Shown here: piece after piece, positions 1 through 20,802 of the stretch
How the letters are laid out: every line of letters starts with the position of its first letter
Numbering within the stretch: position 1 is the first letter of the stretch
Source of the DNA: Eubacteriales bacterium
Lineage (GTDB): Bacteria > Bacillota > Clostridia > Oscillospirales > JAAYXM01
Assembly (NCBI GenBank): GCA_045580305.1
Contig: JAZNNQ010000002.1
Location: 1,787 to 65,786 of the forward strand
Length of the DNA stretch: 64,000 nt
Direction of reading: 5' to 3'
Position numbers and translations under genes: made by a program
Notes under the pieces: generated by a model
Told to the model about the DNA's origin: nothing
The model's input: the letters and a program-made list of their open reading frames with translations, nothing else
Databases searched by the model: none

Positions 1-337
1 GATCGGCTTCTTAGGCTGCATCTTCTGCATCGGCGGTACCTTTGATATGCTGACAAATCTCGCGGTCTTCTCCTGCTGGATATTCTACACGCTCACCTTC
101 GCGGCGGTTATGACCTGGCGCAGAAAGCATCCGGAAATCGAGCGAAAGTACAAGGTGCCTTTCTATCCGGTCATTCCGATTTTGGCGATTATAAGCGGCG
201 TTTATGTTATCTTAAGCCAGATCTTCTGGTCGGGTGCGGCGGCAACTCAGCTCTCTGCCGGAAGTATTGTCGCGACCCTCATAGGACTGCCCATCTACTT
301 CTTAGTTAAAAAATACTATAAATCCAAAGAACAGTAA
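1..337 (+). CDS. amino-acid permease (APC-type), C-terminal fragment; 5' end lies outside the window
   Basis: The frame is open from the window edge. The tail is rich in TM helices (FSCWIFYTLTFAAVMTWRRKHPEIERKYKVPFYPVIPILAIISGVYVI), typical of APC permease C-termini. A terminator follows. Confidence 0.5.
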   Translation, partial: IGFLGCIFCIGGTFDMLTNLAVFSCWIFYTLTFAAVMTWRRKHPEIERKYKVPFYPVIPILAIISGVYVILSQIFWSGAAATQLSAGSIVATLIGLPIYFLVKKYYKSKEQ

Positions 338-339
338 TA

Positions 340-368
340 AAAAAGCCACCGTTTCGGTGGCTTTTTCT
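340..368 (+). terminator. rho-independent terminator
   Basis: Hairpin agccaccg-tttc-ggtggct followed by a T-run, directly after the stop codon. Confidence 0.8.
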
Positions 369-391
369 GTTGGGAATTTTGGCGAAAATTG

Positions 392-420
392 TTGAAAAAG
401 TAATCCTTCGGTGCTATAAT
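392..420 (+). promoter_or_regulatory. sigma-A type promoter (TTGAAA-17 nt-TATAAT, extended -10 TGn)
   Basis: ttgaaa at 392-397, 17-nt spacer, tgc-tataat at 412-420. Near-perfect consensus. Confidence 0.65.
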
Positions 421-441
421 CATATATGCTAGATACTTAAG

Positions 442-461
442 TTACAATGGGTATATTGTAA
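442..461. promoter_or_regulatory. perfect palindrome TTACAAT-N6-ATTGTAA, candidate operator for the WYL regulator
   Basis: 7-bp inverted half-sites read directly, located just downstream of the predicted transcription start. Confidence 0.4.
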
Positions 462-571
462 TTTTGTGTTGCGAAGAATATGTTACGGAAAAAACATACC
501 CCCTGACATACTTTGCAACATAAGTAATTTAAGTGTCTAGCAACCTTAAGCGTCAGAGGGCGATGTTTTTC

Positions 572-605
572 ATGCGTGGTCCTTCGGGGCTGCGCATTTT
601 TTATT
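572..605 (+). terminator. intrinsic terminator / attenuator hairpin inside the leader of the WYL operon
   Basis: atgcgtggtcc-ttcg-ggggctgcgcat, a UUCG-capped stem, followed by TTTTTT (597-602). It lies 80 nt upstream of the regulator ATG. Confidence 0.5.
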
Positions 606-683
606 ATACTTTTTCAGGCGGACATACACCTGTCTGTGTAATTTTATATAATACAATAAAATTACGAAAAGGGATGATTTTCA

Positions 684-1661
684 ATGGAGAATACAAAACA
701 GTACAGAATACTTGAAATCTTTTTCAGAGGCCTGCGAGGCGAGGATATATCGGTTCGTAAGCTTGCTGATGAGTACAATGTGTCCACAAAAAGCGTAAGC
801 CGCAGTATAAGCGAGCTGAAAAACTTTTTAGCGGACAACCGGGAGCTTGTGGGCAATACCGAACTGGAATATTCCTATCAGGACAAGTGCTACCGCCTGT
901 ATATGGATGAATTTTTGAGCAGTAAGGAGCTTTTTGCACTTGTTGAGGTGATGATCGGCGCCCGGGCATTTTCCCGAGAGGAGCTTTTAGAGATTACCGC
1001 AAAATTAAAGCGCTTTACAACGCCGGGTGACTCGCGTATGCTGAGCGAGCTTATCCGTAAGGAGCTGTATCATTACCCCGAGGTAAAGCACGATTGCGAG
1101 CGTGTGCAGGACAACCTCTGGCAGCTGATAAACTGCATAACCGAAAAAAAGGAGATTTCCATCGATTATTATAAGATGGACAGAACCTTTGTAACCCATA
1201 GGGTCTACCCGCTGTCGGTAATGTTCACGGACTATTATTTTTACCTTATCGCCGCAAAAAGCGGTGATGTGAGCAAGCCGGTGTACTTCAGGGTTGACAG
1301 AATAAAATACATAACCGAACACAGAAAAAAGAGCGAAAGATACATACCCGAATTTGACGAAGGCGTGCTCAGAAAGAGGAGCCTTTTTATGTGGCCGGGC
1401 AAGCTCCGCACGATACGGTTTGAATTTTCCGGGCCGTCGGTACAAGCGGTGCTGGACAAGCTGCCCACCGCGAAAATTATTGAGCGTATGGGAAACAAGC
1501 GATACTTGATTGAGGCGGAAACCTACGGCGACGGAATTAAGATGTGGCTGCTCAGTCAGGGGTCATGGGTAAAGGTCACCTCGCCTGCGGACTTTGTAGA
1601 AGAAATGAAAACCGAGCTTAAAAAAATGCTAAAGCTTTATAAAAAAGGGGATAAAAAATGA
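684..1661 (+). CDS. HTH-WYL domain transcriptional regulator (BrxR/CapW-like class)
   Basis: 325 aa. N-terminal HTH (ISVRKLADEYNVSTKSVSRSISEL) and a WYL-type region (VYPLSVMFTDYYFYLIAA..VYFRVDRI). ATGA overlap with the next gene. Confidence 0.8.
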   Translation: MENTKQYRILEIFFRGLRGEDISVRKLADEYNVSTKSVSRSISELKNFLADNRELVGNTELEYSYQDKCYRLYMDEFLSSKELFALVEVMIGARAFSREELLEITAKLKRFTTPGDSRMLSELIRKELYHYPEVKHDCERVQDNLWQLINCITEKKEISIDYYKMDRTFVTHRVYPLSVMFTDYYFYLIAAKSGDVSKPVYFRVDRIKYITEHRKKSERYIPEFDEGVLRKRSLFMWPGKLRTIRFEFSGPSVQAVLDKLPTAKIIERMGNKRYLIEAETYGDGIKMWLLSQGSWVKVTSPADFVEEMKTELKKMLKLYKKGDKK

Positions 1662-2161
1662 TTAACAAAGAGGTTGAAAAGCAGTACAACGATGTCCGGA
1701 TGTCTTTGGAAAACGCGCTGGAGCAGGCAAGTTCCATAGAAGTTTCCGGCGATGAAGAGAATGTAGAATTATCTCAGATCATAAAGACCTTGGAAACACT
1801 CAACGACGGATTTAAAGAGGAAATTGAGAAGCTGAAAAACTCAAGTGAGTGGGACAAGTTCTGTATTGCCTTTTTCGGCGAAACAAACGCCGGCAAATCA
1901 ACCGTAATCGAGTCGCTTAGAATAATTTACGATGAGGAAACACGGCGTGCGGAAGCGCTGGCACAAGAGAAGAAATATCATAGCGCGCTGAGCGAGCATT
2001 GCCAAGAGTATGAAAAGCTCATAACATCTCTTGAGGAGGTAAATACCGCGCTTAAAAGCAAACGCGGTAAAAAAACCCAGAAGATATTAAGTCTTGCTTT
2101 TGGCGTTGTGGGCATAGCGATCGGACTGGTTCTTGCCAATGCGGGGATAATCACATGGTAA
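1658..2161 (+). CDS. tail-anchored coiled-coil protein carrying only the G1 P-loop of a dynamin-like GTPase (N-terminal piece of a split DLP)
   Basis: 167 aa. G1 motif FFGETNAGKSTVIESL flanked by coiled coil, with a C-terminal TM helix ILSLAFGVVGIAIGLVLANAGIITW. No G3 or G4 motif in this ORF. Confidence 0.7.
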   Translation: MINKEVEKQYNDVRMSLENALEQASSIEVSGDEENVELSQIIKTLETLNDGFKEEIEKLKNSSEWDKFCIAFFGETNAGKSTVIESLRIIYDEETRRAEALAQEKKYHSALSEHCQEYEKLITSLEEVNTALKSKRGKKTQKILSLAFGVVGIAIGLVLANAGIITW

Positions 2162-3780
2162 AGAATAAAACTAAAGCAGCGGTAGCGACCTTCATTGAAA
2201 ATGAGAAGGCGTTCTATGACTCACTGAAGAAAATAACAGCATTGGAAAGCGATCTGGGTTGTGTTGACGGAAAGATAATCGGTACGGGTCAGCCGGATTA
2301 TACTCAGGGCTCTACCGAGTATAAACTCGTCGTGGATAACAAAGACTTTTTGCTTATTGACATTCCGGGAATTGAAGGTAAAGAAAAGGAATATAAGAAG
2401 ATAATTTTAAACTCCTTGGAAAAAGCCCATTTGATTTTCTATGTTAACGGTTCGGGCAAAAAGGCGGAAAAGAAGACCCTTGAGAGAATAAAGGCATATA
2501 TGCACGACGGAACATCCGTATATGCACTTTTCAATGTGCATTGTAAGGCCAAGAAAAAAAGAGTCCCGGGCATAGACAAGTCATATACGGAAGAGCTTGC
2601 AGAGGCATATAAGGTGCAGGGCGAGATTGCCGCCCAGACCGAGGCGGAATTCAAGCCGTTTTTGGGTGAGAATTTTAAGGGTAGTGTTTTGCTAAACGGT
2701 CTGCTGTCTTTCTGCTCCTTGGCAGCGGATGGCGACGGAAGTACAACTATCGTCAACGATGAAGAAAAAACCTTGAGAAACGATCAAGTAAAGCTTTTAA
2801 AAGAATACTCGGGCGATTTTGAGCAAATGAGAAGGGAGAGCCACATCGAACTTGTAGAGGATGTTATTGCCCGACACATAGAGCATTTTGATGAATATAT
2901 TATCGAGGAAAACTTAAAAAAGCTGAGAGTGCGTCTTGCCGATACAGTCAGCAAGGTGGAAAGCCTGAAAAAGATCGAGAGCGAGAAAATTAAAAATTTC
3001 CTGAGCGACTATGACGATTTTGAACGCCACTGCAAAAATGCCAAATATGACTTCACCCACACCATACAGCGGATAGGAAGAACAGAGGTGGAATCCGCTT
3101 TTATCGGGGTGAGGGAGGAACTGTTTGATGCGGTTGAGAAAAACGGCGGTAAAATCAAGAAAGAGCAAATTTCTGAGATCTTTGACAAGAGGAAAAACAA
3201 AATAACCAAGGATATAGAAAAGGCGGTAAGCGATAAAGTCAACGAAGCGGCACACGACTACCAGAGCGCGGTCAAAGAGGCTGAAAAAAGACTTTTAAAG
3301 GATTTGCAGCGGGAGCAGAAAAAATTTAAAATCGCGATGCAGGCAAATGCACTAAATTTGGATACTTCTTTTTTAAATGCCCTGAAATTTTCATTTAAAG
3401 ACTTTACCGACGGCGCGATGAAAATCGGTAGATATATTTGGGATATGACTATTGCAATCCCTATCCCGATAATCGGAAGCATTGTCGGACTGTTAGTAGG
3501 ACTATTTGATGTTATATGGGGATGGATTATCTCCAAAGAAAAGCGAATTAACAGGGCAAAGGCGAAGCTGCAAGAGGCTCTCAACGATAAGATAGACGAA
3601 ATAGTGGATGAGATTAAGAAAAGCATAAAAAAGCATAAGCCGGAGGAACAGATCAAACGGGCTCATACCGAAATTCAAAACGGCATTGAGCGACAGCGTG
3701 CGACTCTGCGCGATATTGAAAAACTGCTTGATGTGGTAACATTAAATTTAAACAAAAGCGCTAAGGCGTTAGACAGGTAA
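2155..3780 (+). CDS. dynamin-like protein lacking a P-loop (G2/G3 + stalk + membrane hairpin; C-terminal piece of a split DLP)
   Basis: 541 aa. The start overlaps the previous stop (ATGGTAA). G3-like FLLIDIPGIEG, a long helical region, and a hydrophobic hairpin IAIPIPIIGSIVGLLVGLFDVIWGWII. Confidence 0.7.
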   Translation: MVKNKTKAAVATFIENEKAFYDSLKKITALESDLGCVDGKIIGTGQPDYTQGSTEYKLVVDNKDFLLIDIPGIEGKEKEYKKIILNSLEKAHLIFYVNGSGKKAEKKTLERIKAYMHDGTSVYALFNVHCKAKKKRVPGIDKSYTEELAEAYKVQGEIAAQTEAEFKPFLGENFKGSVLLNGLLSFCSLAADGDGSTTIVNDEEKTLRNDQVKLLKEYSGDFEQMRRESHIELVEDVIARHIEHFDEYIIEENLKKLRVRLADTVSKVESLKKIESEKIKNFLSDYDDFERHCKNAKYDFTHTIQRIGRTEVESAFIGVREELFDAVEKNGGKIKKEQISEIFDKRKNKITKDIEKAVSDKVNEAAHDYQSAVKEAEKRLLKDLQREQKKFKIAMQANALNLDTSFLNALKFSFKDFTDGAMKIGRYIWDMTIAIPIPIIGSIVGLLVGLFDVIWGWIISKEKRINRAKAKLQEALNDKIDEIVDEIKKSIKKHKPEEQIKRAHTEIQNGIERQRATLRDIEKLLDVVTLNLNKSAKALDR

Positions 3781-3798
3781 AAACAGGAGGGAAAGAAA

Positions 3799-5490
3799 GT
3801 GTACGATTTTAAACAGCATACCGAGAACAAAAACGAGCTTCTTGCCAGAATGGACAGCACAAAAGCAAAAATAATTGAGCTTGAAGAATTTGGAATTGAT
3901 ATAAGCGAATCCGTACAGAAAATCGAGAGCGCGAAAGAGATGGTGCGCAACGACAAGATTTCCATCGTATTGGTAGGTGCATTTTCCGACGGTAAAACCA
4001 GTGTTGCGGCAGGTTGGCTCAACGAAAAAATGGACAATATGAAGATTGATACCGATGAATCTTCGGATGAGATATTATGCTACACACCAAGCTCCATTCC
4101 CGAGGGTTGTCAGATTGTTGATACTCCCGGTTTGTTTGGCGACAAAAAAGAAAACGACGGAACGATCACTCTGTCTGAAAAAACAAAAAAATTCATAAGC
4201 GAGGCAAATATAGTTCTTTATGTGGTCACAGCTAAAAACCCACTTAAGGACAGCCACAAGGAATTTGTCAAAAAACTTTTAAAGGACTTAAATAAGCTGC
4301 CCACAACGATTTTTGTCATCAACCGCATGGACGATGTTGCGGATGTGACCGACGAGGAAGAGTATGCCAAACTCGCTAAGATAAAGTCGGATAACCTCCG
4401 CAGTAAGCTTCTTGAATGTGGATTAACCCCTGCAGAGGTTGAAGAGGTTAAAATCGCGTGCATAAGCGCGGCGCCCGACGGTGCAGGCATAGAGATGTGG
4501 AAGAACGACAGAGAAGAGTATTTAAGCAGATCCCATCTGCCTGCGTTGGAAAAGTTTACCAATGATATACTTGAAAATTCCCGCGAACATCTGATAGCAA
4601 AAACCGGCTGTGATGTTCTCAATGCGGAAATTAAGAAAAACTTATCCGCAATTGAAGTTATCGCCAACGAAATAGAAGTTGAAATTCTACCTGTACAGAA
4701 GGAAACCATTCGTCGCAACACCAAGGATTTGCAGCAGCTTCGCAAACGCTTATTGAGTAGCAGAAAAGCAATTCGCGAAGAACTCTACACACTGGAAAAG
4801 AGAAAACTTTCAGCAATAAGAGCGGCGGCGATGGAAAACTTCAAAGATGTCTTAGAGGAGGAAATTGGACTTCTTCCCCAAAATGAAGGCTATCGCTTAA
4901 ATCGGGAAATCAATGATATTTTCGAGAACTATTGTGATAAACACGGCAATTGGGCATGTGAACTGGGCAACTCATTTCAAACTGAATATAACAAGCAAAA
5001 TGATATGATGCAATCCATCCTTTCAAAAAGCGGAGGAGCTCTGAGGGGTGCCGGAAAGCTTGGCACAGATGTGTTCAAAAAAGGTATTTTTGCGGGTCGA
5101 GATCTGCTGGGCAAGCTTGGTAAGACAATAAAGTTCAAGCCCTGGCAGGTTACAAAAATGGCAAATTTCGCAACAAAAGCTCTGCCTGTTATCGGTGCCG
5201 GTATTGATATCGTGATGGGCATAGTAGATAATGTGACGGCAAAGAAGCGGAACAAGGAATTTGAAGCAAACAAGGATGAATTGAAAATGGAGATTGCAGC
5301 ATTATTCAAAACCGTTCAAGACTCTTTGGACGACGAGCAGGCATACTTGAATGATTTTGCACCCGGCTACAATGAACTTCTTGAGAAAATTGCTGAGGAC
5401 GAAGAGACTATGAAGGTAATGGAAAAACAGCTTTCAGGCTTTAAGAAGTGGGAAAAGAATGTTATCGATGTTGACTTTACGGTCTGCTAA
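3799..5490 (+). CDS. bacterial dynamin-like GTPase (complete G domain)
   Basis: 563 aa. GTG start 8 nt after AGGAGG. G1 LVGAFSDGKTSV, G3 IVDTPGLFG, G4 VINRMDDV, a helical stalk, and a paddle-like stretch KALPVIGAGIDIVMGIV. Confidence 0.8.
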   Translation: MYDFKQHTENKNELLARMDSTKAKIIELEEFGIDISESVQKIESAKEMVRNDKISIVLVGAFSDGKTSVAAGWLNEKMDNMKIDTDESSDEILCYTPSSIPEGCQIVDTPGLFGDKKENDGTITLSEKTKKFISEANIVLYVVTAKNPLKDSHKEFVKKLLKDLNKLPTTIFVINRMDDVADVTDEEEYAKLAKIKSDNLRSKLLECGLTPAEVEEVKIACISAAPDGAGIEMWKNDREEYLSRSHLPALEKFTNDILENSREHLIAKTGCDVLNAEIKKNLSAIEVIANEIEVEILPVQKETIRRNTKDLQQLRKRLLSSRKAIREELYTLEKRKLSAIRAAAMENFKDVLEEEIGLLPQNEGYRLNREINDIFENYCDKHGNWACELGNSFQTEYNKQNDMMQSILSKSGGALRGAGKLGTDVFKKGIFAGRDLLGKLGKTIKFKPWQVTKMANFATKALPVIGAGIDIVMGIVDNVTAKKRNKEFEANKDELKMEIAALFKTVQDSLDDEQAYLNDFAPGYNELLEKIAEDEETMKVMEKQLSGFKKWEKNVIDVDFTVC

Positions 5491-5528
5491 TTCGTGTAAA
5501 AAAATATACATAAAGGGGAGAAAGTACA

Positions 5529-6002
5529 ATGGGTAAAATGAAAGCAATAGGCAAGGGAATTGCCAAGGCGTGCAAATGGGCGTACAAGCATTCTAAGGAA
5601 ATCGGTACGGCGGCTAAAGTGGGCTTTGCGGCTTATGATGAAATCCGCAAAACGCGCCATAAAAATAAGGAAACCAAGCCGGAGCTGGAAGAAAGCGGCG
5701 CAACAACCACGGAAAACACGGTTGTCTATGACAAAAGTGCCGTCCTGGCAATAGCAAATCTGGAAAAACGCTGCGAAGAAAAGTGGAAAGCCCTGGAGGA
5801 GTTAAATGCCGACAGGGAAAAGGAAATTTTCGCATTGAGCAAGGATGTCGAGGGCCACATCCAGGAGCTTCGCGATGCGATTGAAACCTTGATAGCCGAA
5901 CAAGAAAAGATCAACAAGAAGCAGAGCCTTGGATTAACGCTGATAAGCGTTATAGGAGGTGTCGGTATAGTAGCGGCCATTATACTGGCTATTGTTCTGT
6001 AA
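5529..6002 (+). CDS. tail-anchored coiled-coil membrane protein, unknown function
   Basis: 157 aa. Basic amphipathic N-terminus, coiled-coil middle, C-terminal TM LTLISVIGGVGIVAAIILAIVL. RBS GGGGAG. Confidence 0.6.
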   Translation: MGKMKAIGKGIAKACKWAYKHSKEIGTAAKVGFAAYDEIRKTRHKNKETKPELEESGATTTENTVVYDKSAVLAIANLEKRCEEKWKALEELNADREKEIFALSKDVEGHIQELRDAIETLIAEQEKINKKQSLGLTLISVIGGVGIVAAIILAIVL

Positions 6003-6016
6003 AAGGGGGATATAAT

Positions 6017-6229
6017 ATGTCAGCAATTGTTGTTAATGTAAAACATATTAAGAAATGCGCCTTTTGCAGAAATTGGTATGATCCTACCAACAGCGCGATT
6101 TCTCCAAAATCCCCGTCAATCGGGTTGTGGGAGATAAAGGACATAAATCAGAAAAACACCTGTACTAAGAAAAACATCCCAATGGCGGCAAACGCTTTTT
6201 GCAGTTCTGATTTTGAGAGTAAAATATAG
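6017..6229 (+). CDS. small Cys-containing protein, unknown function
   Basis: 70 aa. RBS AGGGGG 6 nt upstream. CAFC motif plus two further Cys. Last gene before the terminator. Confidence 0.4.
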   Translation: MSAIVVNVKHIKKCAFCRNWYDPTNSAISPKSPSIGLWEIKDINQKNTCTKKNIPMAANAFCSSDFESKI

Positions 6230-6274
6230 CGAGCGGGTGGCATCTGCAAAAAACGAAAAGAAGCATAAAAACAG

Positions 6275-6310
6275 AAAATCCTCCGAAAACCCGGGGGATT
6301 TTATGTTTAT
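6275..6310 (+). terminator. probable rho-independent terminator closing the WYL-dynamin operon
   Basis: aaaatcctcc-gaaaaccc-gggggatttt stem-loop followed by T-rich sequence. Confidence 0.5.
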
Positions 6311-6336
6311 ACGGACACCTGTATGTCTGACTTGGG

Positions 6337-6345
6337 TGCTATAAT
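6337..6345 (+). promoter_or_regulatory. extended -10 element (TGcTATAAT)
   Basis: tgctataat read directly, about 27 nt upstream of the next ATG. The -35 is weak. Confidence 0.35.
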
Positions 6346-6371
6346 ATGTATGTAAAAGGGAGGTGAAGCGA

Positions 6372-6707
6372 ATGCTGAAATACGAAATCGCAAAAAGCAT
6401 ATACGAAGAAATCAAGGACAAAGTGGCTCATGACACGAGGGAAGGAGTAGAGGGCTTTTATAAGGATTTTTTAGTCAGCGCTTGTGAGTATGCAAAAAAT
6501 CGCATCGACTGGTCCTTTATGAATGGGGAAGAGAAACTGGAGGACGATGCGAGCAGATCAGTAAAGCATGACGCCTTTATGTCAAGACTTAAAGCGGTTT
6601 GCAGAGCGTTACAAATTGACGGAATTGAAGAACTTATGCCGGACAGAAAAACAAAAGGTGACTTTGCCTGTTACATAGCAATGTTCCTGGCATTGGAACA
6701 GCGTTAA
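6372..6707 (+). CDS. hypothetical helical protein
   Basis: ATG at 6372 lies 9 nt after GGGAGG. The track ORF begins at GTG 6363. No recognisable motif. Confidence 0.5.
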   Translation: MLKYEIAKSIYEEIKDKVAHDTREGVEGFYKDFLVSACEYAKNRIDWSFMNGEEKLEDDASRSVKHDAFMSRLKAVCRALQIDGIEELMPDRKTKGDFACYIAMFLALEQR

Positions 6708-6719
6708 GAAAGGAAAAAT

Positions 6720-7316
6720 ATGCCCAAAAACTGGAAGTATATCAAAAAACTGTTGGAGAAGGAGTTTCTCTGCGAAAAACTTAAGGGTCACATAACCTAT
6801 GACCTGACCGATTACAGACCTGCGCCCTGGTATCAGCAGCATTTCATTATGAAATACGATGATGAGGTTCTGCTTTGTGCATCGCAGCCCGACCGCAAGT
6901 GGGACAAGCGCCATCCATATCAGCATACCTATTGGAAGCAGCGGGATGTAATCGCCGAAAAGCTCCGCGAAAAATATGACCTGTCGGAGGAGCAGCTTGC
7001 GGATGTTGTTGAAGATACAATCGAAGAGGTGGACAGAATAAATGCCCATTACGACGGGGTGTTTGGCGTCAAGGACATTGTTGATCTTATCGGCGAGTAT
7101 CTTCATTCGGATATTGAAGCAAGTCTCGGATATCGGCAGGACTACTTCATTAACGCCCTCGCCGTACTTGACAGACGCTGCGGCAAGCGCAGGCTCGAGA
7201 AGCTTGCAAAAACGGACTGTGCGGGATTTCCCGAGTGGTTAAGGCGGATATGCAGGATACGCTTTGAAGCGGAAGGTGTAAGCTACAACAAATATTTTGA
7301 TATTGCAAGAATTTAA
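6720..7316 (+). CDS. hypothetical protein
   Basis: 198 aa, 12-nt gap from the previous gene. No motif I can assign. Confidence 0.5.
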   Translation: MPKNWKYIKKLLEKEFLCEKLKGHITYDLTDYRPAPWYQQHFIMKYDDEVLLCASQPDRKWDKRHPYQHTYWKQRDVIAEKLREKYDLSEEQLADVVEDTIEEVDRINAHYDGVFGVKDIVDLIGEYLHSDIEASLGYRQDYFINALAVLDRRCGKRRLEKLAKTDCAGFPEWLRRICRIRFEAEGVSYNKYFDIARI

Positions 7317-7329
7317 AGGAGTGTATTTT

Positions 7330-7881
7330 ATGTTAGGAAAAATCTTTTCATTACTGGTTGGTTTAGGTATCGGTACCGCGACCGTGAAGCTGATTTCGGA
7401 TAAAATTGCCGATAATGCAAAAAGCAATATTTTATCAATGCTCTACGCGGCAAGAAAACAATACGATGCAGGCGAACTCACCCAGCTGCAGTATGATGAA
7501 ACCCTGAAAATATTACATAAATCCGTAAGCGAAAAGGATAGAAAAGCGATAGACGAGGAGCTGGAAGAGAGGTATTTCATAGCTGAGGATATGTTAAATA
7601 CCCATATCGAGCTATTGGACGAGATCGAGGAGGCGGGAGCTGCCTCGCTGCAGGAATACATTGAAAAGCACCCGAATGATGCCTATATAAACGGCATTGT
7701 GGGCCTGGATGATTATGTATATGAAGAAGGTGAAAAGTCCCCGGAGGAGGCAGAACGCCTTTTGAAAAAATACATATATAATGTCGGAGAAGAGAAAAAA
7801 GAGCTGATAGCAGAGGTAAAGATGCTCGGCGGCGACATTGACAGAGTACAGCGCATATTTGATAAAATAACATTTGAATAA
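7330..7881 (+). CDS. N-terminally membrane-anchored acidic coiled-coil protein
   Basis: ATG 7330 lies 8 nt after AAGGAG. TM MLGKIFSLLVGLGIGTATVKLI followed by Glu-rich helices. Confidence 0.55.
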   Translation: MLGKIFSLLVGLGIGTATVKLISDKIADNAKSNILSMLYAARKQYDAGELTQLQYDETLKILHKSVSEKDRKAIDEELEERYFIAEDMLNTHIELLDEIEEAGAASLQEYIEKHPNDAYINGIVGLDDYVYEEGEKSPEEAERLLKKYIYNVGEEKKELIAEVKMLGGDIDRVQRIFDKITFE

Positions 7882-7888
7882 ATAATAA

Positions 7889-7930
7889 AGGGAGCGCCCG
7901 ACAAATCATCGGGCGCCCCCTTTTGTTTTA
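7889..7930 (+). terminator. rho-independent terminator
   Basis: GC-rich stem gggagcgcccga / tcgggcgccccc followed by ttttgtttt. Confidence 0.85.
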
Positions 7931-7933
7931 TAA

Positions 7934-7962
7934 TTGAAAGATTTTCAAGGATGTGGTATAAT
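7934..7962 (+). promoter_or_regulatory. sigma-A type promoter (TTGAAA-17 nt-TATAAT with TGn)
   Basis: ttgaaa 7934-7939, tgg-tataat 7954-7962, about 55 nt upstream of the first TIR gene. Confidence 0.6.
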
Positions 7963-8015
7963 TCATTTATATAGTCTGCCTGCATTTATTACGAAGAATT
8001 TTAAGGAGATAATTT

Positions 8016-11000
8016 ATGGCATATGATATTTTTATATCCTATAAGGAAAGCGACGGCGCGCAATATGCAGAAAAGTTGAAAAAAGGATTGACAGGCAAAG
8101 GGTATAAATCTGTTTATTTTAACAAAACTGATAAGGACGAAGAAGGAAGTTTTATTACGAGACTTGAAAACGCGATCAAAACTTGTAAAGTTTTTATCTT
8201 TGTGTTGAGCGAAAACGCTAAACAATCTATATTAAATAAAACTGCAGAGAAGGGATCAAAAGAGTTTGATTATGTTTGTTGGGAACTTAGCAGGGCGCGT
8301 GAGTATAGTAAGCATGTGCTGATTTTAAACACAGGCTGTTCTTTTGATCCGTACACCGATAAATATAAATATGATGATATGAAGGATATCGAAATATATA
8401 CAGGAAGAGACTGCAAATCATCTTTGCTTGAAGCGCAGACATTTGAAATGGATAAGATACTTGATGAGCAAGGGGATTTGCTGAAAAGTGCGGGCGTTGA
8501 CATTTCTTTGCGAATGACACTTCGCAGGGTAATTTATGGAGTTTTATCTCTTAAATACAAAGCAAAGAATCCAGCTGGTAATTATGTTGATAAGGAATGT
8601 ATATTCAATAAACAGGCGTTGGAGGCATTGTGTGAATACATAACAAAAGATAACAGTATTACTACAGAAATAGAAAACTGTGCAACAGCGGAAAAATTAA
8701 CTGAATATATGAATAATACCAATCATGAAATGCTACAGGGATTTTGTGAACACTTTGAAATGGAGCCGGGCGGAAAAGAGCAAAAAGCAATTAATATCAA
8801 AATTAAAGACATTGCTATGTGTAAGTTGTATGAAATGGATTGTTGGGAGGTACTCGAGTATTTATATAATTCATATCTTATGATGAATTTTCACGAAGAC
8901 TATGCTTCTATAAGAAAGTTTTATTTAAACAAAACAATAAGTGATTACATTCTTGCGCTTGCTTGGAACAGATATTTTATTAAAAATAAAGATAAAAGAC
9001 GGGAACTTGTTTACAAAATTATTCCCGAACTTATAAGAACCCACAATCATGCGCAGAGATATTTGTTTGCTTTGATAGAAAAGGGAAGATTTGAAAGCGG
9101 GGATGAATGGCTTTTTTGCGATATTGGCGAAGAACACTCGAGCCAGATAAAAATTTTGTTTGGTGAATACTATCGGGATGTTTTTAATACCGATATGGCC
9201 AGATCAACATTTACAGAACGGCTTTTTATGTGGTTTAATCGTAATAAAGATAGTTTTGTTGATTTCTGTTTACAATTAATAAAAAAGTATAAATGCAGTG
9301 ATGCGGAAATATGGAATTTTTTGATTGTAAAATGTGATACGCTGGCAAATAAAAACAGTCTGGAGATTTTAAAAGGATATTTTTCAGAGTATGTAAAACA
9401 AAAAAACTATAAAGTTATCTTTAGAATGATTGAACAAGGGTTAAATAAATTTGTTTTTTTTAATGGTAACCAAGAAAAAGACCAAAAGTTATTTGACTTG
9501 TTATATGGGGCAACAACGAATAGAGAAGTTGTTGAAAAATATGGTCACGGATTAGCGAAAGCATTTTATACATTTTGGAAAAATGATCAGCATACAGAAG
9601 AAATCAAACAAATTACATATGAAAAACACCTCGATAAGATTGTTTCATTTAAAAATCTGTACAATATAGTTGAAGGAATTACCCTTGAAAACCCCGGTAT
9701 TCCCAAGAAAAAGTTTGAAGAAATTCTTCGAGAAACCGTAAACGAGTCGGACGATAAAATTTTAGAGGACAAACAATTTTTGTATGTATTAAATAACATA
9801 TGGGTTACAGACCAAAATGCAGATCTTTACAACAGGGCCGTGAGTAGATTGCTTGATGTATGTACATACTTAAACAGATATTATGGATTTACGGTACTTC
9901 TGTTTGTAAGATATGGAAGAAAAAGCTTTAATGAAGCAAACAGAAAAAGATTATTTGAATGCATAAAAGATTTTGCAGATAAATATGGAGCTGATGTAAA
10001 ACTTGAAGATAAACATTACGATAAAATGTTTAAAATTCTTGAGAATCATTATTTTGACGATATAAGAACAGATTTCAAAATGAAGGTGTTCGACAATGAA
10101 GGAGTAGCACCGGAAACTAAATTGAATATCTTTAACCTTTGGTACGATGTCGGGTTAAAAGAACGACTTAAAGAGAAAATAAAAGAAAATACCGACGAAA
10201 ACAACGAGACACAAAAGGCTTTTAAAATATTGTTTAAAGCCAAAAATAAGAGATGGAAAAATTTACAGGGCTGGAAGGCTGTCCATCTGTATCCTCTCAT
10301 TGAAGAACTTCTTGATTTTGAGAATTTTGTTGAGCTGAAGCCAGATATTCAGAAAAATTTAATACACAATGTAAAAACAAAGAAAGAGTTTTATCCGAAA
10401 ATCAAAGCGCTGTTAGATTCGTTTAAAGTGAATGAGTATGCATGGAATAGCTTAAGCGCTTCCGTAAAAATTGCATTTGTTATGCATATCAATAAAATCA
10501 TTGAAAAGTTTGAAGAAATAGATTTCATTAACTGCTTTGCGGAAAGTGTTATCGAGGATGTAGCATCCATGCGTAAGCGGCGCGGCGAAGTTGAAACGGA
10601 ATATGGAATCAGAGAAGAAACATTAATGTATCATATGATTTTGTTGTATCGAAAAAAACCATGGAAAACAGCAAGATTGTGTGCTGCGGCACAAGTAAAA
10701 TGGTATGGTCAACTTAAATATGAAGATGAAAAGGATGACTACAACAAGAAGAATATGCTCTTTGAACGCCGCGAGTTGTTTAAAACGGCAGTGTCAAATC
10801 CTTGCATCAAGGACTTGACCTGTTATTTAGCGAGAGCGAACTATTCTGTTGTGCGTCAAAATTCATCTGAAATAGCTAACGAGCCGGATGTTTTGAAAGA
10901 TTTTACAACGCTCTTCAGAAACATAATCGGAGGAAGGATTCCGCTGTGGTTTGGCGCGGAAGTGGCAGCGCCGATAAAAACCAAAATGCAGTGGATAGAA

Positions 11001-11591
11001 AATATTGATTTTGAAAGTGTTGTTAATGACTTCAAAAAACGCGATAGCGATCAAGGAAAGTCGTTGGAGGATCAAATACTTGATGCAGCCCAAAAAGGTA
11101 GAGACAATTTTGAAGAAAAGGCTGTTGATTTCGAGGAAGAAGCCGAGAAAATTATAGTATGGAAAAATTCAGAGTGTGATGAAAAGATATATGTTCTAAC
11201 ACGAAAAAGGCTTTTTGCAAGATATTTTGACAACAGCATATGGTATGAAGGGCTGAAGTTTAATGCCTTTCTGTTTATACCACAGATGTGCGAAGAGGTG
11301 TCTTTTGTTTCAACAAGAGATGTATTTGATGTTCGCGTGGAAATAGAGACGGTTAGAAAAGCAATAGAAGAAAAATTCAAATACGCTCTCGTTGAATTTG
11401 ATCCCGCAAAACCCAAATTTGACCGGTTTGTTAAAGGTTGTAGAATTGATAAAACTGTCCAAGAACCAATTAATCAGTTCTATAACGCATATTTGAATTA
11501 TTTAAAACTGGGAGCAATAAAACCTGAAATTGCTGAAGCATTTTCAGACTATGTTAGGCATATGAAACGCACAATTGAAAATATGAAATAG
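8016..11591 (+). CDS. TIR-domain protein with ~1050-aa helical C-terminal region of unknown function
   Basis: 1191 aa. N-terminus MAYDIFISYKESDG..VFIFVLS..DYVCWELSRA is a TIR signature that includes the conserved Glu. I found no Walker A motif. RBS AAGGAG. Confidence 0.75.
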   Translation: MAYDIFISYKESDGAQYAEKLKKGLTGKGYKSVYFNKTDKDEEGSFITRLENAIKTCKVFIFVLSENAKQSILNKTAEKGSKEFDYVCWELSRAREYSKHVLILNTGCSFDPYTDKYKYDDMKDIEIYTGRDCKSSLLEAQTFEMDKILDEQGDLLKSAGVDISLRMTLRRVIYGVLSLKYKAKNPAGNYVDKECIFNKQALEALCEYITKDNSITTEIENCATAEKLTEYMNNTNHEMLQGFCEHFEMEPGGKEQKAINIKIKDIAMCKLYEMDCWEVLEYLYNSYLMMNFHEDYASIRKFYLNKTISDYILALAWNRYFIKNKDKRRELVYKIIPELIRTHNHAQRYLFALIEKGRFESGDEWLFCDIGEEHSSQIKILFGEYYRDVFNTDMARSTFTERLFMWFNRNKDSFVDFCLQLIKKYKCSDAEIWNFLIVKCDTLANKNSLEILKGYFSEYVKQKNYKVIFRMIEQGLNKFVFFNGNQEKDQKLFDLLYGATTNREVVEKYGHGLAKAFYTFWKNDQHTEEIKQITYEKHLDKIVSFKNLYNIVEGITLENPGIPKKKFEEILRETVNESDDKILEDKQFLYVLNNIWVTDQNADLYNRAVSRLLDVCTYLNRYYGFTVLLFVRYGRKSFNEANRKRLFECIKDFADKYGADVKLEDKHYDKMFKILENHYFDDIRTDFKMKVFDNEGVAPETKLNIFNLWYDVGLKERLKEKIKENTDENNETQKAFKILFKAKNKRWKNLQGWKAVHLYPLIEELLDFENFVELKPDIQKNLIHNVKTKKEFYPKIKALLDSFKVNEYAWNSLSASVKIAFVMHINKIIEKFEEIDFINCFAESVIEDVASMRKRRGEVETEYGIREETLMYHMILLYRKKPWKTARLCAAAQVKWYGQLKYEDEKDDYNKKNMLFERRELFKTAVSNPCIKDLTCYLARANYSVVRQNSSEIANEPDVLKDFTTLFRNIIGGRIPLWFGAEVAAPIKTKMQWIENIDFESVVNDFKKRDSDQGKSLEDQILDAAQKGRDNFEEKAVDFEEEAEKIIVWKNSECDEKIYVLTRKRLFARYFDNSIWYEGLKFNAFLFIPQMCEEVSFVSTRDVFDVRVEIETVRKAIEEKFKYALVEFDPAKPKFDRFVKGCRIDKTVQEPINQFYNAYLNYLKLGAIKPEIAEAFSDYVRHMKRTIENMK

Positions 11592-11665
11592 TTTTGTCAT
11601 CTAAATTGTGCACTAATTCTATAATGAACTCAATATATGATCGTATATATTGAGTGGAGGGTACT

Positions 11666-12577
11666 ATGTCAAAATATGCAGTTAGTGATGAAGGTATAAA
11701 AGCTCTTAAAATAACAGCATCTAATGTTTTAAATGCCGTTGAACGGATATTGAATGCTACAAACTCTATAGAATCTGTTGCTGACGAGCATGTTGAAACT
11801 TTAGGACCACACTATGCTTCGTTAGTCGCTGCAATCACAGAGATACGCGAAGCGCAAAGACAAGCAGTTCAACCTGCATATGACATATCCGAAACATTGA
11901 ATGATATTGCCGATGCCTACCAAGATATAATAGATGATGATAAAATTCTTGCAGGCAACAGCGGAACATCTGCAGCAGGTGGTTTGCAGGGCGGAGGAAG
12001 CGACGGCAGTAACAAAGGTGGCAAAGTTGCGTCGTTTTTTGGGAAGATATTTGGCAGCACCGGCGCTTCAGGAAGCCGGTTTGGAGAGTTTAATGTGGAC
12101 TCAAACGGGTTTGTAAAGGGTAATGGATATGACTGTTTTATAAATGACTGGAATAGTTACGGGAAAGTGGAATTTGAAACAGACACGAAAAGTTATTCCG
12201 GGAAAAATGTTACTGAAACGATTGACCCCGGATTGATAGCGGGATTTCGGGTAAGAGAATATGACATCAAGAACCCGGGAACATTTTGGAGCCAACATCA
12301 AACGGGAGGCACTGCGGAGTCGTTTAAAGAAGTGGCTTCGCATATCCCGGAGGTAAAGAGTGAACTGGCTAAAGGCCGCTCTTTGGTTGATTTGGAGAAC
12401 GATCCGGTATTGGGCCCGTGTGCTTCAGTTTATTTTGATCCTGAGAATATGGTGAAAGTAATAAAGTGCGAAGGTTACTATGAATTCCAAGGCAATGGGC
12501 GCCATAGGATTCTTGCGGCAAGAGCCGCGGGGTATGATATTCCGGTGAAGATTGTCGGCAGCCGCAAAAGAAAATAA
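11666..12577 (+). CDS. helical N-domain / Gly-rich linker / ParB-Srx-like C-domain protein (polymorphic-toxin-like architecture)
   Basis: ATG 11666 follows GGAGGG. About 95 aa of helix, then the linker GNSGTSAAGGLQGGGSDGSNKGG, then C-terminal YYEFQGNGRHRILAARAAGYDIPVKIV (ParB/sulfiredoxin-type GxxRxxA motif). Confidence 0.45.
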   Translation: MSKYAVSDEGIKALKITASNVLNAVERILNATNSIESVADEHVETLGPHYASLVAAITEIREAQRQAVQPAYDISETLNDIADAYQDIIDDDKILAGNSGTSAAGGLQGGGSDGSNKGGKVASFFGKIFGSTGASGSRFGEFNVDSNGFVKGNGYDCFINDWNSYGKVEFETDTKSYSGKNVTETIDPGLIAGFRVREYDIKNPGTFWSQHQTGGTAESFKEVASHIPEVKSELAKGRSLVDLENDPVLGPCASVYFDPENMVKVIKCEGYYEFQGNGRHRILAARAAGYDIPVKIVGSRKRK

Positions 12578-12596: not shown

Positions 12597-12816
12597 ATGG
12601 ACGAAACAAATAACGATGATATAAATTCTTGAGGTTATTCGCGATATAGAAAAATTTGATTTTGTTATATTTGGTGAGATTCTTATATCATATTGCATTG
12701 CCTACGAAAAATCGCAATTCAACGGTTCTTGTTTCAAAGAGTACATCTATCCACCGACAGCAACGGAGTTTCTCATTGAGGAGAGACAAATGAAGGAAAA
12801 GAGCTTTTGTCCCTGA
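12597..12816 (+). pseudogene. possible frameshifted small ORF (candidate cognate/immunity gene remnant)
   Basis: ATG 12597 gives 11 codons and then TGA. The +1 frame stays open for 61 more codons (EVIRDIEKFDFVIFGEILISYCIAYEKSQFNG..) with no start codon of its own. Confidence 0.2.
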
Positions 12817-12860
12817 CCAGACATAAAGTTTGTCTAATTATTCAAAAAAGGAGAAAATAT

Positions 12861-20718: not shown

Positions 20719-20802
20719 TGAGCATATTAACCTAAAGGTGCGCTTGCGGGGCGTATGACTTGATTCTGCCGCAAGGAACACAAATTTTTTGGAGTGAAAG
20801 CA

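What the first reader, a model, noticed from the sequence alone, without database searches (positions are those of the whole stretch)
1658..3780. GTPase domain split between the P-loop and switch/G3 motifs, with a TM helix at the break point
The first ORF has only G1 (FFGETNAGKSTVIESL). It then runs through about 70 aa of coiled coil into a C-terminal TM helix and stops. The next ORF starts inside the stop region (ATGGTAA, 7-nt overlap). It has no P-loop but carries FLLIDIPGIEG (G3) about 75 aa in. A single G domain therefore seems to be encoded on two translationally coupled polypeptides, one of them tail-anchored. From memory, the known Leo-type split separates larger modules rather than cutting within the G domain. 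The break does not look like a simple assembly frameshift. The frame of the second ORF has a stop at 2068-2070, and the first frame encodes a convincing TM helix across the junction.
Basis: seen in the sequence. Interest (0 to 1): 0.65.

Follow-up and report, generated by a model that had tools for sequence, protein, structure and literature searches.

The report
Known LeoC/LeoB split dynamin (Eleos)

Summary
ORF1 (1658-2161, 167 aa) has only the P-loop and ends in a C-terminal TM helix. ORF2 (2155-3780, 541 aa) starts in an ATGGTAA overlap, has no Walker A and carries DIPG. It is wrong that this differs from the known Leo split. PADLOC calls the three genes LeoC (3e-41), LeoB (8e-111) and LeoA (3e-179). 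ETEC H10407 LeoC/LeoB, read directly, break at the same place: AFFGETNAGKST plus a hydrophobic tail in LeoC, and VDGxIIGTGxxDFT...DVPG in LeoB. Michie et al. 2014 describe exactly this, and Millman et al. 2022 note it again for the dynamin (Eleos) defence system. The split is conserved. All 120 listed LeoC homologues are 158-192 aa. Of 80 genome loci, 64 are split, and 62 of those have a hydrophobic tail. LeoB follows in all three relative frames, which excludes a frameshift artefact or conserved recoding. An AF2 model of LeoB (pLDDT 80) is a dynamin-like fold whose G domain lacks β1/P-loop/α1. Three minor points are new. Switch 1 appears to lie in LeoB. Fused relatives carry 16-295 aa at the same site. 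The local operon adds a WYL regulator and a conserved 70-aa Cys-rich protein.

The parts
392..420 (+). Promoter-like site (TTGAAA-17-TATAAT, TG-extended) upstream of the operon
   Evidence: Consensus match only (11/12); function not shown.
684..1661 (+). HTH-WYL-WCX transcriptional regulator. Its stop overlaps the leoC start (ATGA).
   Evidence: Pfam WYL 7e-09 and WCX 5e-06. PADLOC WYL 7e-25. A WYL/WCX gene sits directly before leoC in L006 and L007 as well.
1658..2161 (+). leoC: N-terminal helices, β1, P-loop and α1 of the split dynamin-like GTPase, then a long helix and a C-terminal tail anchor
   Evidence: PADLOC LeoC 3.1e-41. BLASTP against ETEC LeoC gives 31% identity, E 7e-26. All 120 listed homologues are 158-192 aa.
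1871..1903 (+). G1/P-loop FFGETNAGKST (LeoC aa 72-82)
   Evidence: E75 to T82 are invariant in A1. The motif is identical in ETEC LeoC.
2075..2158 (+). LeoC C-terminal hydrophobic tail anchor (aa 140-167)
   Evidence: Kyte-Doolittle peak 2.32. A hydrophobic tail is present in 62 of 64 split genome loci and in 104 of 117 family representatives.
2155..2161 (+). ATGGTAA: the leoB start overlaps the leoC stop (translational coupling)
   Evidence: The same ATGGTAA occurs in L006. L004, L005 and L007 also have 7-nt overlaps.
2155..3780 (+). leoB: the rest of the dynamin-like protein (Switch 1, G3, remaining G-domain strands, helical neck/trunk, hydrophobic paddle, C-terminal helix)
   Evidence: PADLOC LeoB 7.9e-111. 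BLASTP against ETEC LeoB gives 29% identity, E 8e-48. AF2 pLDDT is 80. Top Foldseek hits are 4AUR (LeoA) and 5OWV_C.
2263..2304 (+). Candidate Switch 1/G2 motif VDGKIIGTGQPDYT (LeoB aa 37-50)
   Evidence: D38, G39, I41, I42, G43, T44, G45, D48 and T50 are invariant in 119 LeoB sequences. The motif lies in the loop just before β2 in the AF2 model. In unsplit LeoBC it follows α1 directly. The assignment as G2 is inferred.
2359..2370 (+). G3/Switch 2 DIPG (LeoB aa 69-72)
   Evidence: D69, P71 and G72 are invariant. The motif sits at the end of β3 in the model.
3436..3537 (+). LeoB hydrophobic paddle-like segment (aa 428-461)
   Evidence: Kyte-Doolittle peak 2.43. It aligns with the hydrophobic region of ETEC LeoB. 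Its pLDDT is low.
3799..5490 (+). leoA: complete soluble dynamin-like GTPase partner (GVG start codon is GTG, preceded by GGAGG)
   Evidence: PADLOC LeoA 2.7e-179. NCBIfam NF041922 scores 485.6 bits against a cut-off of 325. Pfam DLP_helical 5e-54. BLASTP against ETEC LeoA gives 34% identity, E 2e-102.
5529..6002 (+). 157-aa tail-anchored coiled-coil ORF between leoA and the small conserved gene. Membership of the system is uncertain.
   Evidence: TM at aa 132-157, Kyte-Doolittle 2.88. No family match. Absent at this position in L001, L002, L004, L006 and L007.
6017..6229 (+). 70-aa Cys-rich protein conserved immediately downstream of leoA in this clade
   Evidence: Orthologues are in L004 8423-8635 and L006 8285-8497 and L007 4964-5176. 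No Pfam or NCBIfam family.
6275..6302 (+). Terminator-like hairpin closing the operon
   Evidence: Pattern match only.

Best explanation
Positions 1658-5490 are a leoC-leoB-leoA (Eleos, dynamin-like) anti-phage operon. It sits in a defence island of a Clostridia-type genome, behind a WYL regulator. LeoC and LeoB together make one bacterial dynamin-like protein encoded as two chains. LeoC supplies the N-terminal helices, the central β1 strand, the P-loop and helix α1. It then runs out along a long helix to a C-terminal tail anchor in the cytoplasmic membrane. LeoB begins with a roughly 30-aa helix. It supplies Switch 1, Switch 2 (DIPG), the remaining strands of the G domain, the helical neck/trunk, a hydrophobic paddle and the C-terminal helix. 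β1 is the central strand of a Ras-like sheet (established fold knowledge), so LeoB's G domain cannot be complete or bind GTP without LeoC. The tightly coupled translation (ATGGTAA) probably favours assembly of an obligate heterodimer whose G domain is pinned to the membrane. This membrane-bound LeoCB would then work with soluble LeoA through GTP-dependent G-domain pairing to remodel or seal membrane during phage infection. Shown here: gene identity, the position of the split, its conservation, and the incomplete G-domain fold of LeoB. Inferred: LeoC-LeoB complementation, helix-helix pairing at the break, the assignment of Switch 1 to LeoB, and the defence mechanism.
For: PADLOC gives LeoC 3e-41, LeoB 8e-111 and LeoA 3e-179. 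The fused LeoBC profile maps ORF1 aa 4-88 to positions 19-98 and ORF2 aa 36-521 to positions 99-567. ETEC LeoC/B/A were read from NC_017633.1 and compared. The order is C-B-A, the P-loop and hydrophobic tail are the same in LeoC, and VDGxIIGTGxxDFT...DVPG is the same in LeoB. E values are 7e-26, 8e-48 and 2e-102. The literature describes this exact split and re-sequenced it. [quoted passage not shown] Both halves are colinear with natural fused proteins: ORF1 6-97 matches P0277 8-99 and ORF2 30-530 matches P0277 134-651. The split is conserved. The AF2 LeoB model has pLDDT 80 and the element order helix, loop, β2, β3-DIPG, α2, β4, α3, β5 and onward, so no β1/P-loop/α1. Foldseek's best PDB hits are LeoA 4AUR, Cj-DLP 5OWV, SynDLP, IniA and BDLP. 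ORF2 has no Walker A. The context is a defence island with three TIR proteins.
Against: No direct evidence here that the two chains bind. LeoB has no canonical [NT]KxD G4 motif. Michie et al. place Switch 1 in LeoC, whereas I place it in LeoB. Defence has been shown only for an unsplit Bacillus system. The ETEC system was linked to toxin and vesicle release, and LeoA was reported as periplasmic. The mechanism of Eleos is unknown.
Confidence: 0.93

Rival explanations
1. The split is a sequencing or assembly frameshift, for example in the A7 run at 2069-2075, within a gene that is really a fused leoBC.
For: One extra A in the A7 run would join ORF1 aa 1-139 to ORF2's frame, which is open from 2071. 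Fused LeoBC genes exist: 15 of 80 loci.
Against: All 120 listed LeoC homologues, at 48-68% identity, stop at the same place with a hydrophobic tail read in ORF1's frame. L006 has the same ATGGTAA. L001 and L002 have 12-15 nt spacers with GGAGG or GGAG. ETEC has a 10-nt spacer and was re-sequenced. 64 of 80 genome loci are split. The alternative-frame peptide (PEDIKSCFWRCGHSDRTGSCQCGDNH) resembles nothing in the fused proteins.
Confidence: 0.01
2. Programmed recoding (a ribosomal frameshift or stop read-through) makes a fused LeoCB protein, and the two ORFs are not separate products.
For: The ORFs overlap by 7 nt. In L001 and L002 the two genes happen to lie in the same frame, separated by a single stop.
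Against: Across 59 split loci, LeoB lies in all three frames relative to LeoC (26/19/14), with spacings from overlaps to about 57 nt. No single recoding mechanism is therefore conserved. There is no slippery heptamer at 2150-2161. Shine-Dalgarno sequences precede the leoB starts.
Confidence: 0.02
3. LeoC and LeoB do not rebuild a G domain. LeoB would be a GTPase-dead membrane scaffold, and LeoC an independent small membrane protein or regulator.
For: Binding has not been shown. Michie et al. could not purify LeoB/LeoC alone, together or as a chimera. LeoB lacks a canonical G4 motif.
Against: The P-loop in LeoC is invariant, and so are the Switch-1-like and DxPG motifs in LeoB. Such conservation is not expected in dead fragments. 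Natural fusions are colinear with both halves. The LeoB model lacks the central β1 strand, and its G-domain confidence (block means 62-80) is below that of the helical parts (85-94). P-loop mutation of the LeoBC-type protein abolishes defence in the Bacillus system.
Confidence: 0.04
4. The operon serves vesicle formation, secretion or general membrane maintenance, as first proposed for ETEC LeoABC, and not phage defence.
For: The ETEC leoAB disruption reduces secretion of periplasmic and outer-membrane proteins. The mechanism of Eleos is unknown.
Against: The operon lies beside three TIR-domain STAND-like proteins in a low-GC island (32-36% against 46-50%). It sits behind a WYL/WCX regulator typical of defence loci. 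The operon co-localises with defence systems in 60% of cases, and a homologue protects against jumbo phages.
Confidence: 0.1

Closest known systems
LeoC/LeoB/LeoA of enterotoxigenic E. coli H10407 (Michie et al. 2014, PLoS One 9:e107211; LeoA structure 4AUR)
   Same: The gene order is C-B-A. LeoC is N-terminal helices, P-loop (AFFGETNAGKST, identical) and a C-terminal hydrophobic anchor. LeoB is VDGxIIGTGxxD[FY]T, DxPG, helical domains and a paddle. LeoA is a complete soluble DLP. Pairwise E values are 7e-26, 8e-48 and 2e-102.
   Different: Identity is only 29-34%. LeoC here is shorter (167 against 205 aa, so a shorter helix before the anchor). The genes overlap by 7 nt instead of having a 10-nt spacer. 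The host is Gram-positive-type (Clostridia-like). The operon includes a WYL regulator and small downstream genes in place of tia/orf5.
Eleos ('dynamins') anti-phage system, LeoA + LeoBC, of Bacillus vietnamensis (Millman et al. 2022; named Eleos by Cury et al. 2022)
   Same: Same protein families (PADLOC LeoBC profile 4e-20 and 5e-62 for the two halves). Defence-island location. Two paired dynamin-like GTPases.
   Different: The tested system has an unsplit LeoBC. Here the first gene is divided, a variant those authors mention for ETEC. Defence by a split version has not been tested, as far as the papers I read show.
Bacillus subtilis DynA (two-headed fused DLP; Guo et al. 2022, mBio)
   Same: A bacterial dynamin-like GTPase pair acting at the membrane. 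It protects against phage by preserving membrane integrity and delaying lysis (abstracts).
   Different: DynA takes the opposite genetic route: two DLPs fused into one chain. It is a housekeeping gene with no split G domain and no tail anchor.
Campylobacter jejuni DLP1/DLP2 pair (5OWV) and Nostoc BDLP1 (2J68)
   Same: Tandem-encoded bacterial DLPs with a G domain, neck, trunk and paddle. They are among the best structural matches of the LeoB model.
   Different: These have contiguous G domains and no tail-anchored fragment.
Long isoform of mitochondrial Mgm1/OPA1
   Same: A membrane anchor near the G domain holds one DLP at the membrane while a soluble partner joins it. Michie et al. draw this analogy.
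   Different: That anchor is N-terminal on a single chain and is removed by proteolysis to give the short form. It is not a gene split.

Membership tests
Eleos / LeoABC dynamin-like system | A LeoA-family dynamin-like GTPase encoded next to the LeoB(C) gene(s) | tested here: met
   ORF3 3799-5490: PADLOC LeoA 2.7e-179. NCBIfam NF041922 scores 485.6 bits, above the cut-off of 325. 34% identity and E 2e-102 to ETEC LeoA.
Eleos / LeoABC dynamin-like system | A LeoB homologue: a DLP lacking the P-loop, with DxxG, helical domains and a hydrophobic paddle | tested here: met
   PADLOC LeoB 7.9e-111. 29% identity and E 8e-48 to ETEC LeoB over aa 37-488. No Walker A; DIPG present; hydrophobic segment at aa 428-461.
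Eleos / LeoABC dynamin-like system | A LeoC homologue: N-terminal helices, P-loop and a C-terminal hydrophobic anchor | tested here: met
   PADLOC LeoC 3.1e-41. 31% identity and E 7e-26 to ETEC LeoC. Tail Kyte-Doolittle 2.32.
Eleos / LeoABC dynamin-like system | Gene order leoC-leoB-leoA on one strand, tightly spaced | tested here: met
   Window genes are 1658-2161, 2155-3780 and 3799-5490. The same order is seen in ETEC and in L001, L002, L004, L006 and L007.
Eleos / LeoABC dynamin-like system | A split located between P-loop/α1 and the rest of the G domain | tested here: met
   The LeoBC profile maps ORF1 to positions 19-98 and ORF2 to positions 99-567. The ETEC sequences break at the same point. 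The published description agrees.
Eleos / LeoABC dynamin-like system | Anti-phage activity that depends on the GTPase P-loops | not testable with these tools
   Shown only for the unsplit B. vietnamensis system. Here there is only defence-island context.
Dynamin superfamily / bacterial dynamin-like proteins | A G domain with G1-G4 motifs | tested here: inconclusive
   G1 is in LeoC and G3 in LeoB. A candidate G2 is T50 of LeoB, which is invariant. No canonical [NT]KxD is present; after β5 the sequence is N127-V-H-C-K.
Dynamin superfamily / bacterial dynamin-like proteins | A helical neck/trunk with a membrane-binding paddle; overall DLP fold | tested here: met
   AF2 pLDDT is 80 with long helices at 231-305, 336-397 and 461-540. 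Top Foldseek hits are 4AUR, 5OWV_C, 9EM7/7ZW6, 6J72 and 2J68. TM-scores are low (0.2-0.3), as expected for flexible multi-domain proteins.
Dynamin superfamily / bacterial dynamin-like proteins | GTP hydrolysis and membrane remodelling | not testable with these tools
   This needs biochemistry. Michie et al. could not purify LeoB/LeoC.

The most novel reading that the evidence does not exclude
The split could be a working device and not a neutral gene fission. In this family the loop between α1 and Switch 1 is an insertion hotspot: fused relatives carry 16 to 295 aa there, with amphipathic but never truly transmembrane middles. The split forms look like such a helical hairpin cut at its membrane tip. 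The result is a tail-anchored P-loop fragment and a separate catalytic remainder. If the two assemble only under certain conditions, for example membrane perturbation by phage or expression released by the WYL regulator, then LeoC/LeoB would be a natural split-GTPase switch that gates dynamin activity at the membrane. In this clade it would work with accessory small proteins, including the conserved 70-aa Cys-rich protein.
Probability: 0.1. Interest if true: 0.5.

Novelty: already known. Interest (0 to 1): 0.12.

Why it matters
It matters little as a discovery. The P-loop/Switch split with a tail anchor is the published LeoC/LeoB architecture, and standard defence-system HMMs recognise this locus. 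The check has three practical uses. It stops a known system from being flagged as novel. It shows the split form is the majority among 80 sampled species genomes (64 of 80), so it deserves the biochemical attention that has so far gone to unsplit systems. It gives a tractable set of natural fused, insertion-bearing and split variants for testing why a dynamin G domain tolerates, or benefits from, being cut between α1 and Switch 1.

Tried and rejected
(1) I tried a pseudo-multimer AF2 run on ORF1, a Gly-Ser linker and ORF2. (2) AF2 of the natural long fused homologue P0379 without an alignment gave an unusable model (pLDDT 42.7), and I drew no conclusions from it. (3) I built a mixed MSA (A3) of fused, LeoC and LeoB sequences to model a fused protein. 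MAFFT spread the LeoC tails across the G domain and placed LeoB's N-terminal helix on the P-loop columns, so I abandoned it and modelled LeoB alone. (4) A sequence search of the PDB with the LeoB profile found nothing at E<=0.01. With the LeoC profile it found only generic P-loop matches to Gα and IRG proteins. The weak Pfam G-alpha hit on ORF1 is therefore P-loop/α1 similarity and does not indicate a Gα relationship. (5) Cluster look-up gave no names for the window proteins. (6) An Rfam scan of 1-8000 found no RNA family. (7) I considered the frameshift-artefact and programmed-recoding readings and rejected both on comparative grounds. (8) The antisense ORFs inside 1658-3780 are treated as spurious, given the strong plus-strand homology.
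Full report
OBSERVATION.

ORF1 (1658-2161, +, 167 aa) carries FFGETNAGKST at aa 72-82. It has no DxxG and no [NT]KxD. After a long charged stretch that is predicted to be helical, it ends in TQKILSLAFGVVGIAIGLVLANAGIITW. That tail has a 19-residue Kyte-Doolittle peak of 2.32 and runs to the stop.

ORF2 (2155-3780, +, 541 aa) starts at the ATG of ATGGTAA, a 7-nt overlap with the ORF1 stop, with GGGGA 8-13 nt upstream. It has no Walker-A-like motif. DIPG lies at aa 69-72 and a second hydrophobic segment at aa 428-461. ORF2's frame is closed by TAA at 2068-2070.

I also noted an A7 run at 2069-2075. One extra A there would join the two frames, so the artefact question had to be settled by comparison with other genomes.

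WHAT IT IS. PADLOC profiles identify ORF1 as LeoC (3.1e-41), ORF2 as LeoB (7.9e-111) and the next gene, 3799-5490, as LeoA (2.7e-179). The profile of unsplit LeoBC aligns ORF1 aa 4-88 to positions 19-98 and ORF2 aa 36-521 to positions 99-567. The two ORFs are therefore consecutive pieces of one protein family, and the junction falls right after the P-loop helix. NCBIfam places ORF3 in the LeoA/HP0731 family with 485.6 bits against a cut-off of 325.

I fetched the founding example, E. coli ETEC H10407 leoC-leoB-leoA, from NC_017633.1 and translated it.
- ETEC LeoC contains AFFGETNAGKSTIIESLRI and ends ...RFTLLATACGCFIAGAGGMAALLSQIW*.
- ETEC LeoB starts 10 nt later and carries RRVDGLIIGTGESDFTKGNTHY...LIDVPGIEG.
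- The window has GCVDGKIIGTGQPDYTQGSTEY...LIDIPGIEG at the matching position.
- Pairwise BLASTP between window and ETEC gives 31% identity with E 7e-26 for LeoC, 29% with 8e-48 for LeoB, and 34% with 2e-102 for LeoA.

The break point, the tail anchor and the gene order are the same.

WHAT IS ALREADY PUBLISHED. Michie et al. [quoted passage not shown] They say its C-terminal 22 residues are a predicted membrane anchor. [quoted passage not shown] DXXG'. They re-sequenced the junction and report the split arrangement as conserved in various bacteria.

Millman et al. 2022 showed that the two-gene dynamin operon of Bacillus vietnamensis protects against the jumbo phages AR9 and PBS1. Protection requires the P-loop of each protein. 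[quoted passage not shown] Cury et al. named the system Eleos.

The finding is a correct rediscovery.

NOT AN ARTEFACT, NOT RECODING. Several lines of evidence agree.
- The 120 best LeoC homologues (48-68% identity) are all 158-192 aa. In an alignment of 14 of them, the P-loop is invariant and the tail is hydrophobic in all.
- The 120 best LeoB homologues are 516-561 aa, apart from one 773-aa outlier. None of the inspected neighbourhoods is fused.
- In L004-L007 the genes overlap by 7 nt, and L006 has the same ATGGTAA.
- In L001 and L002 the genes are separated by 12-15 nt containing GGAGG or GGAG.
- An exhaustive profile search found 702 cluster representatives. Of the top 150, 136 are short, 130 of those have a P-loop and none has DxPG. 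Of the 117 that are at least 150 aa, 104 have a hydrophobic C-terminus. Ten are long fused proteins.
- In 80 species-representative genome loci, 64 are split, 15 are fused and 1 is cut by a contig end. The loci come from Clostridia, Treponema, Brachyspira, Muribaculaceae, Pseudomonas, Acinetobacter, Serratia, Verrucomicrobia and others. 62 of the 64 split loci have a hydrophobic tail, and 59 have the LeoB motif ORF directly downstream.
- In those 59 loci, LeoB lies in all three frames relative to LeoC (26/19/14). That excludes both a recurrent frameshift error and any single conserved recoding mechanism.

One caveat applies. These searches were seeded with a split-type LeoC, so the split-to-fused ratio is biased towards split forms.

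STRUCTURE. LeoB alone, modelled with a 119-sequence alignment, gave a mean pLDDT of 80. The order of elements is:
- helix 2-32;
- a loop at 33-53 holding the invariant residues D38, G39, I41, I42, G43, T44, G45, D48 and T50;
- β 54-60, then β 63-69 ending in DIPG;
- helix 77-90, β 93-98, helix 106-115, β 121-127, helix 144-173, β 174-180;
- then long neck/trunk helices, a low-confidence hydrophobic tip and a C-terminal helix.

Compared with the canonical Ras-like order (β1-G1-α1-G2-β2-β3-G3-α2-β4-α3-β5-G4-α4-β6; established knowledge), this is a G domain that lacks exactly β1, the P-loop and α1. Confidence in the G-domain part (block means 62-80) is lower than in the helical parts (85-94). That fits a missing central strand. 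Foldseek against the PDB ranks LeoA 4AUR first, followed by Cj-DLP 5OWV_C, SynDLP, IniA, BDLP and MxA.

BLASTP shows both ORFs are colinear with natural fused proteins. For example, ORF1 6-97 matches P0277 8-99, and ORF2 30-530 matches P0277 134-651.

SMALL NEW POINTS. All three are inferences.

(a) Switch 1. In unsplit LeoBC the sequence runs GKSTIIETFRILF..(16-25 aa)..VDGxIVGDGRxDFT. In the split systems that invariant motif is in LeoB, in the loop just before β2. The G2 threonine (T50 here) therefore most likely belongs to LeoB, not to LeoC as Michie et al. wrote.

(b) Insertion hotspot. In 25 fused proteins the spacing between GKS[TS] and that motif ranges from 16 to 295 aa. The longer inserts are predicted coiled coils with amphipathic middles and never contain a true TM segment (19-residue Kyte-Doolittle at most 1.12). 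Split LeoC tails are real TM-grade segments. The split therefore looks like a helical-hairpin insertion cut at its membrane-facing tip. On that reading, the LeoC helix at aa 90-138 and the LeoB helix at aa 2-32 are the two arms and probably hold the chains together.

(c) Local operon. The genes run as follows:
- WYL/WCX regulator (684-1661), whose stop overlaps the leoC start (ATGA);
- leoC, leoB and leoA;
- a 157-aa tail-anchored ORF (5529-6002) that is absent from relatives;
- a 70-aa Cys-rich protein (6017-6229) that is conserved after leoA in L004, L006 and L007;
- a terminator-like hairpin at 6275-6302.

MECHANISM (best estimate). LeoC and LeoB form an obligate two-chain dynamin-like GTPase. 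Its G domain is tethered to the cytoplasmic membrane by LeoC's tail anchor, and its tip is tethered by LeoB's paddle. Coupled translation favours co-assembly. Soluble LeoA pairs with it through GTP-dependent G-domain contacts. By analogy with DynA and the tested Eleos system, the pair remodels or seals membrane during phage infection. Only the gene identities, the position and conservation of the split, and the incomplete G-domain fold are shown here. The rest is inference.

CONTEXT. The operon (42-45% GC) adjoins a low-GC stretch (32-36%, 8-20 kb). The neighbourhood encodes three TIR proteins: TIR_2 at 8016-11591, TIR-NACHT-β-propeller at 12807-16205 and TIR-AAA_16-TPR at 20794-23226. Housekeeping genes at 46-50% GC follow. 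This is a defence island. The named homologues point to Clostridia (Eubacteriales, Lachnospiraceae, Ruminococcus).

VERDICT. Novelty: already known. Interest: low (0.12).

Noticed in passing
window 6017-6229 (+); L004 8423-8635; L006 8285-8497; L007 4964-5176: A 70-aa Cys-rich protein (CAFCxNWYDPTNSAIxPKSPxIGLWEIKD...NAFCS) is conserved immediately downstream of leoA in this clade. It has no Pfam or NCBIfam family. It may be an unrecognised accessory component of this Eleos subtype.
   Followed up: partly
window 5529-6002 (+): A 157-aa coiled-coil protein with a C-terminal tail anchor (aa 132-157, Kyte-Doolittle 2.88) sits between leoA and the 70-aa gene. Its layout resembles the C-terminal half of LeoC, but it has no P-loop. 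It is absent at this position from the five related loci inspected.
   Followed up: partly
window 684-1661 (+); L006 3369-4334; L007 48-1013; L001 497-1501: An HTH-WYL-WCX regulator lies directly upstream of leoC. In the window its stop overlaps the leoC start (ATGA). In L001 the WYL gene is separated from leoC by a small GTPase and by LRAT and patatin genes.
   Followed up: partly
window 8016-11591, 12807-16205, 20794-23226 (+): Three large TIR-domain proteins lie here: TIR_2 only (1191 aa), TIR-NACHT-β-propeller (1132 aa) and TIR-AAA_16-TPR (810 aa). The first two lie in a low-GC (32-36%) stretch next to the Eleos operon, so this is a defence island.
   Followed up: partly
window 11654-12577, 16156-18045, 18283-20718 (+): ORFs of 307, 629 and 811 aa inside the low-GC island have no Pfam match at E<=1e-4. 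They could be uncharacterised defence genes.
   Followed up: no
LeoB aa 37-50 (window 2263-2304); ETEC LeoB in L003: The invariant VDGxIIGTGxxD[FY]T motif, the likely Switch 1, is in LeoB both here and in ETEC. Michie et al. 2014 state that Switch 1 is in LeoC. This is a small discrepancy with the literature.
   Followed up: partly
P0277, P0353, P0370, P0374, P0379, P0388; L082-L085, L087: Unsplit LeoBC relatives carry insertions of 16 to 295 aa between the P-loop helix and the Switch-1 motif. The long ones are coiled coils with amphipathic middles. The site of the LeoC/LeoB split is therefore an insertion hotspot.
   Followed up: partly
P0148 (773 aa): One LeoB homologue is about 230 aa longer than the rest and carries a precomputed PF02746 (MR_MLE_N) hit. 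It is probably a gene-calling fusion, but this was not examined.
   Followed up: no
window 6720-7316 (+): An SF0329-family protein (Pfam PF25753, 3e-27) lies just downstream of the operon. It has a weak PADLOC PDC-M03B hit.
   Followed up: no
window 572-597 (+): A terminator-like hairpin lies between the promoter-like site (392-420) and the WYL gene start. No Rfam family matches there.
   Followed up: partly
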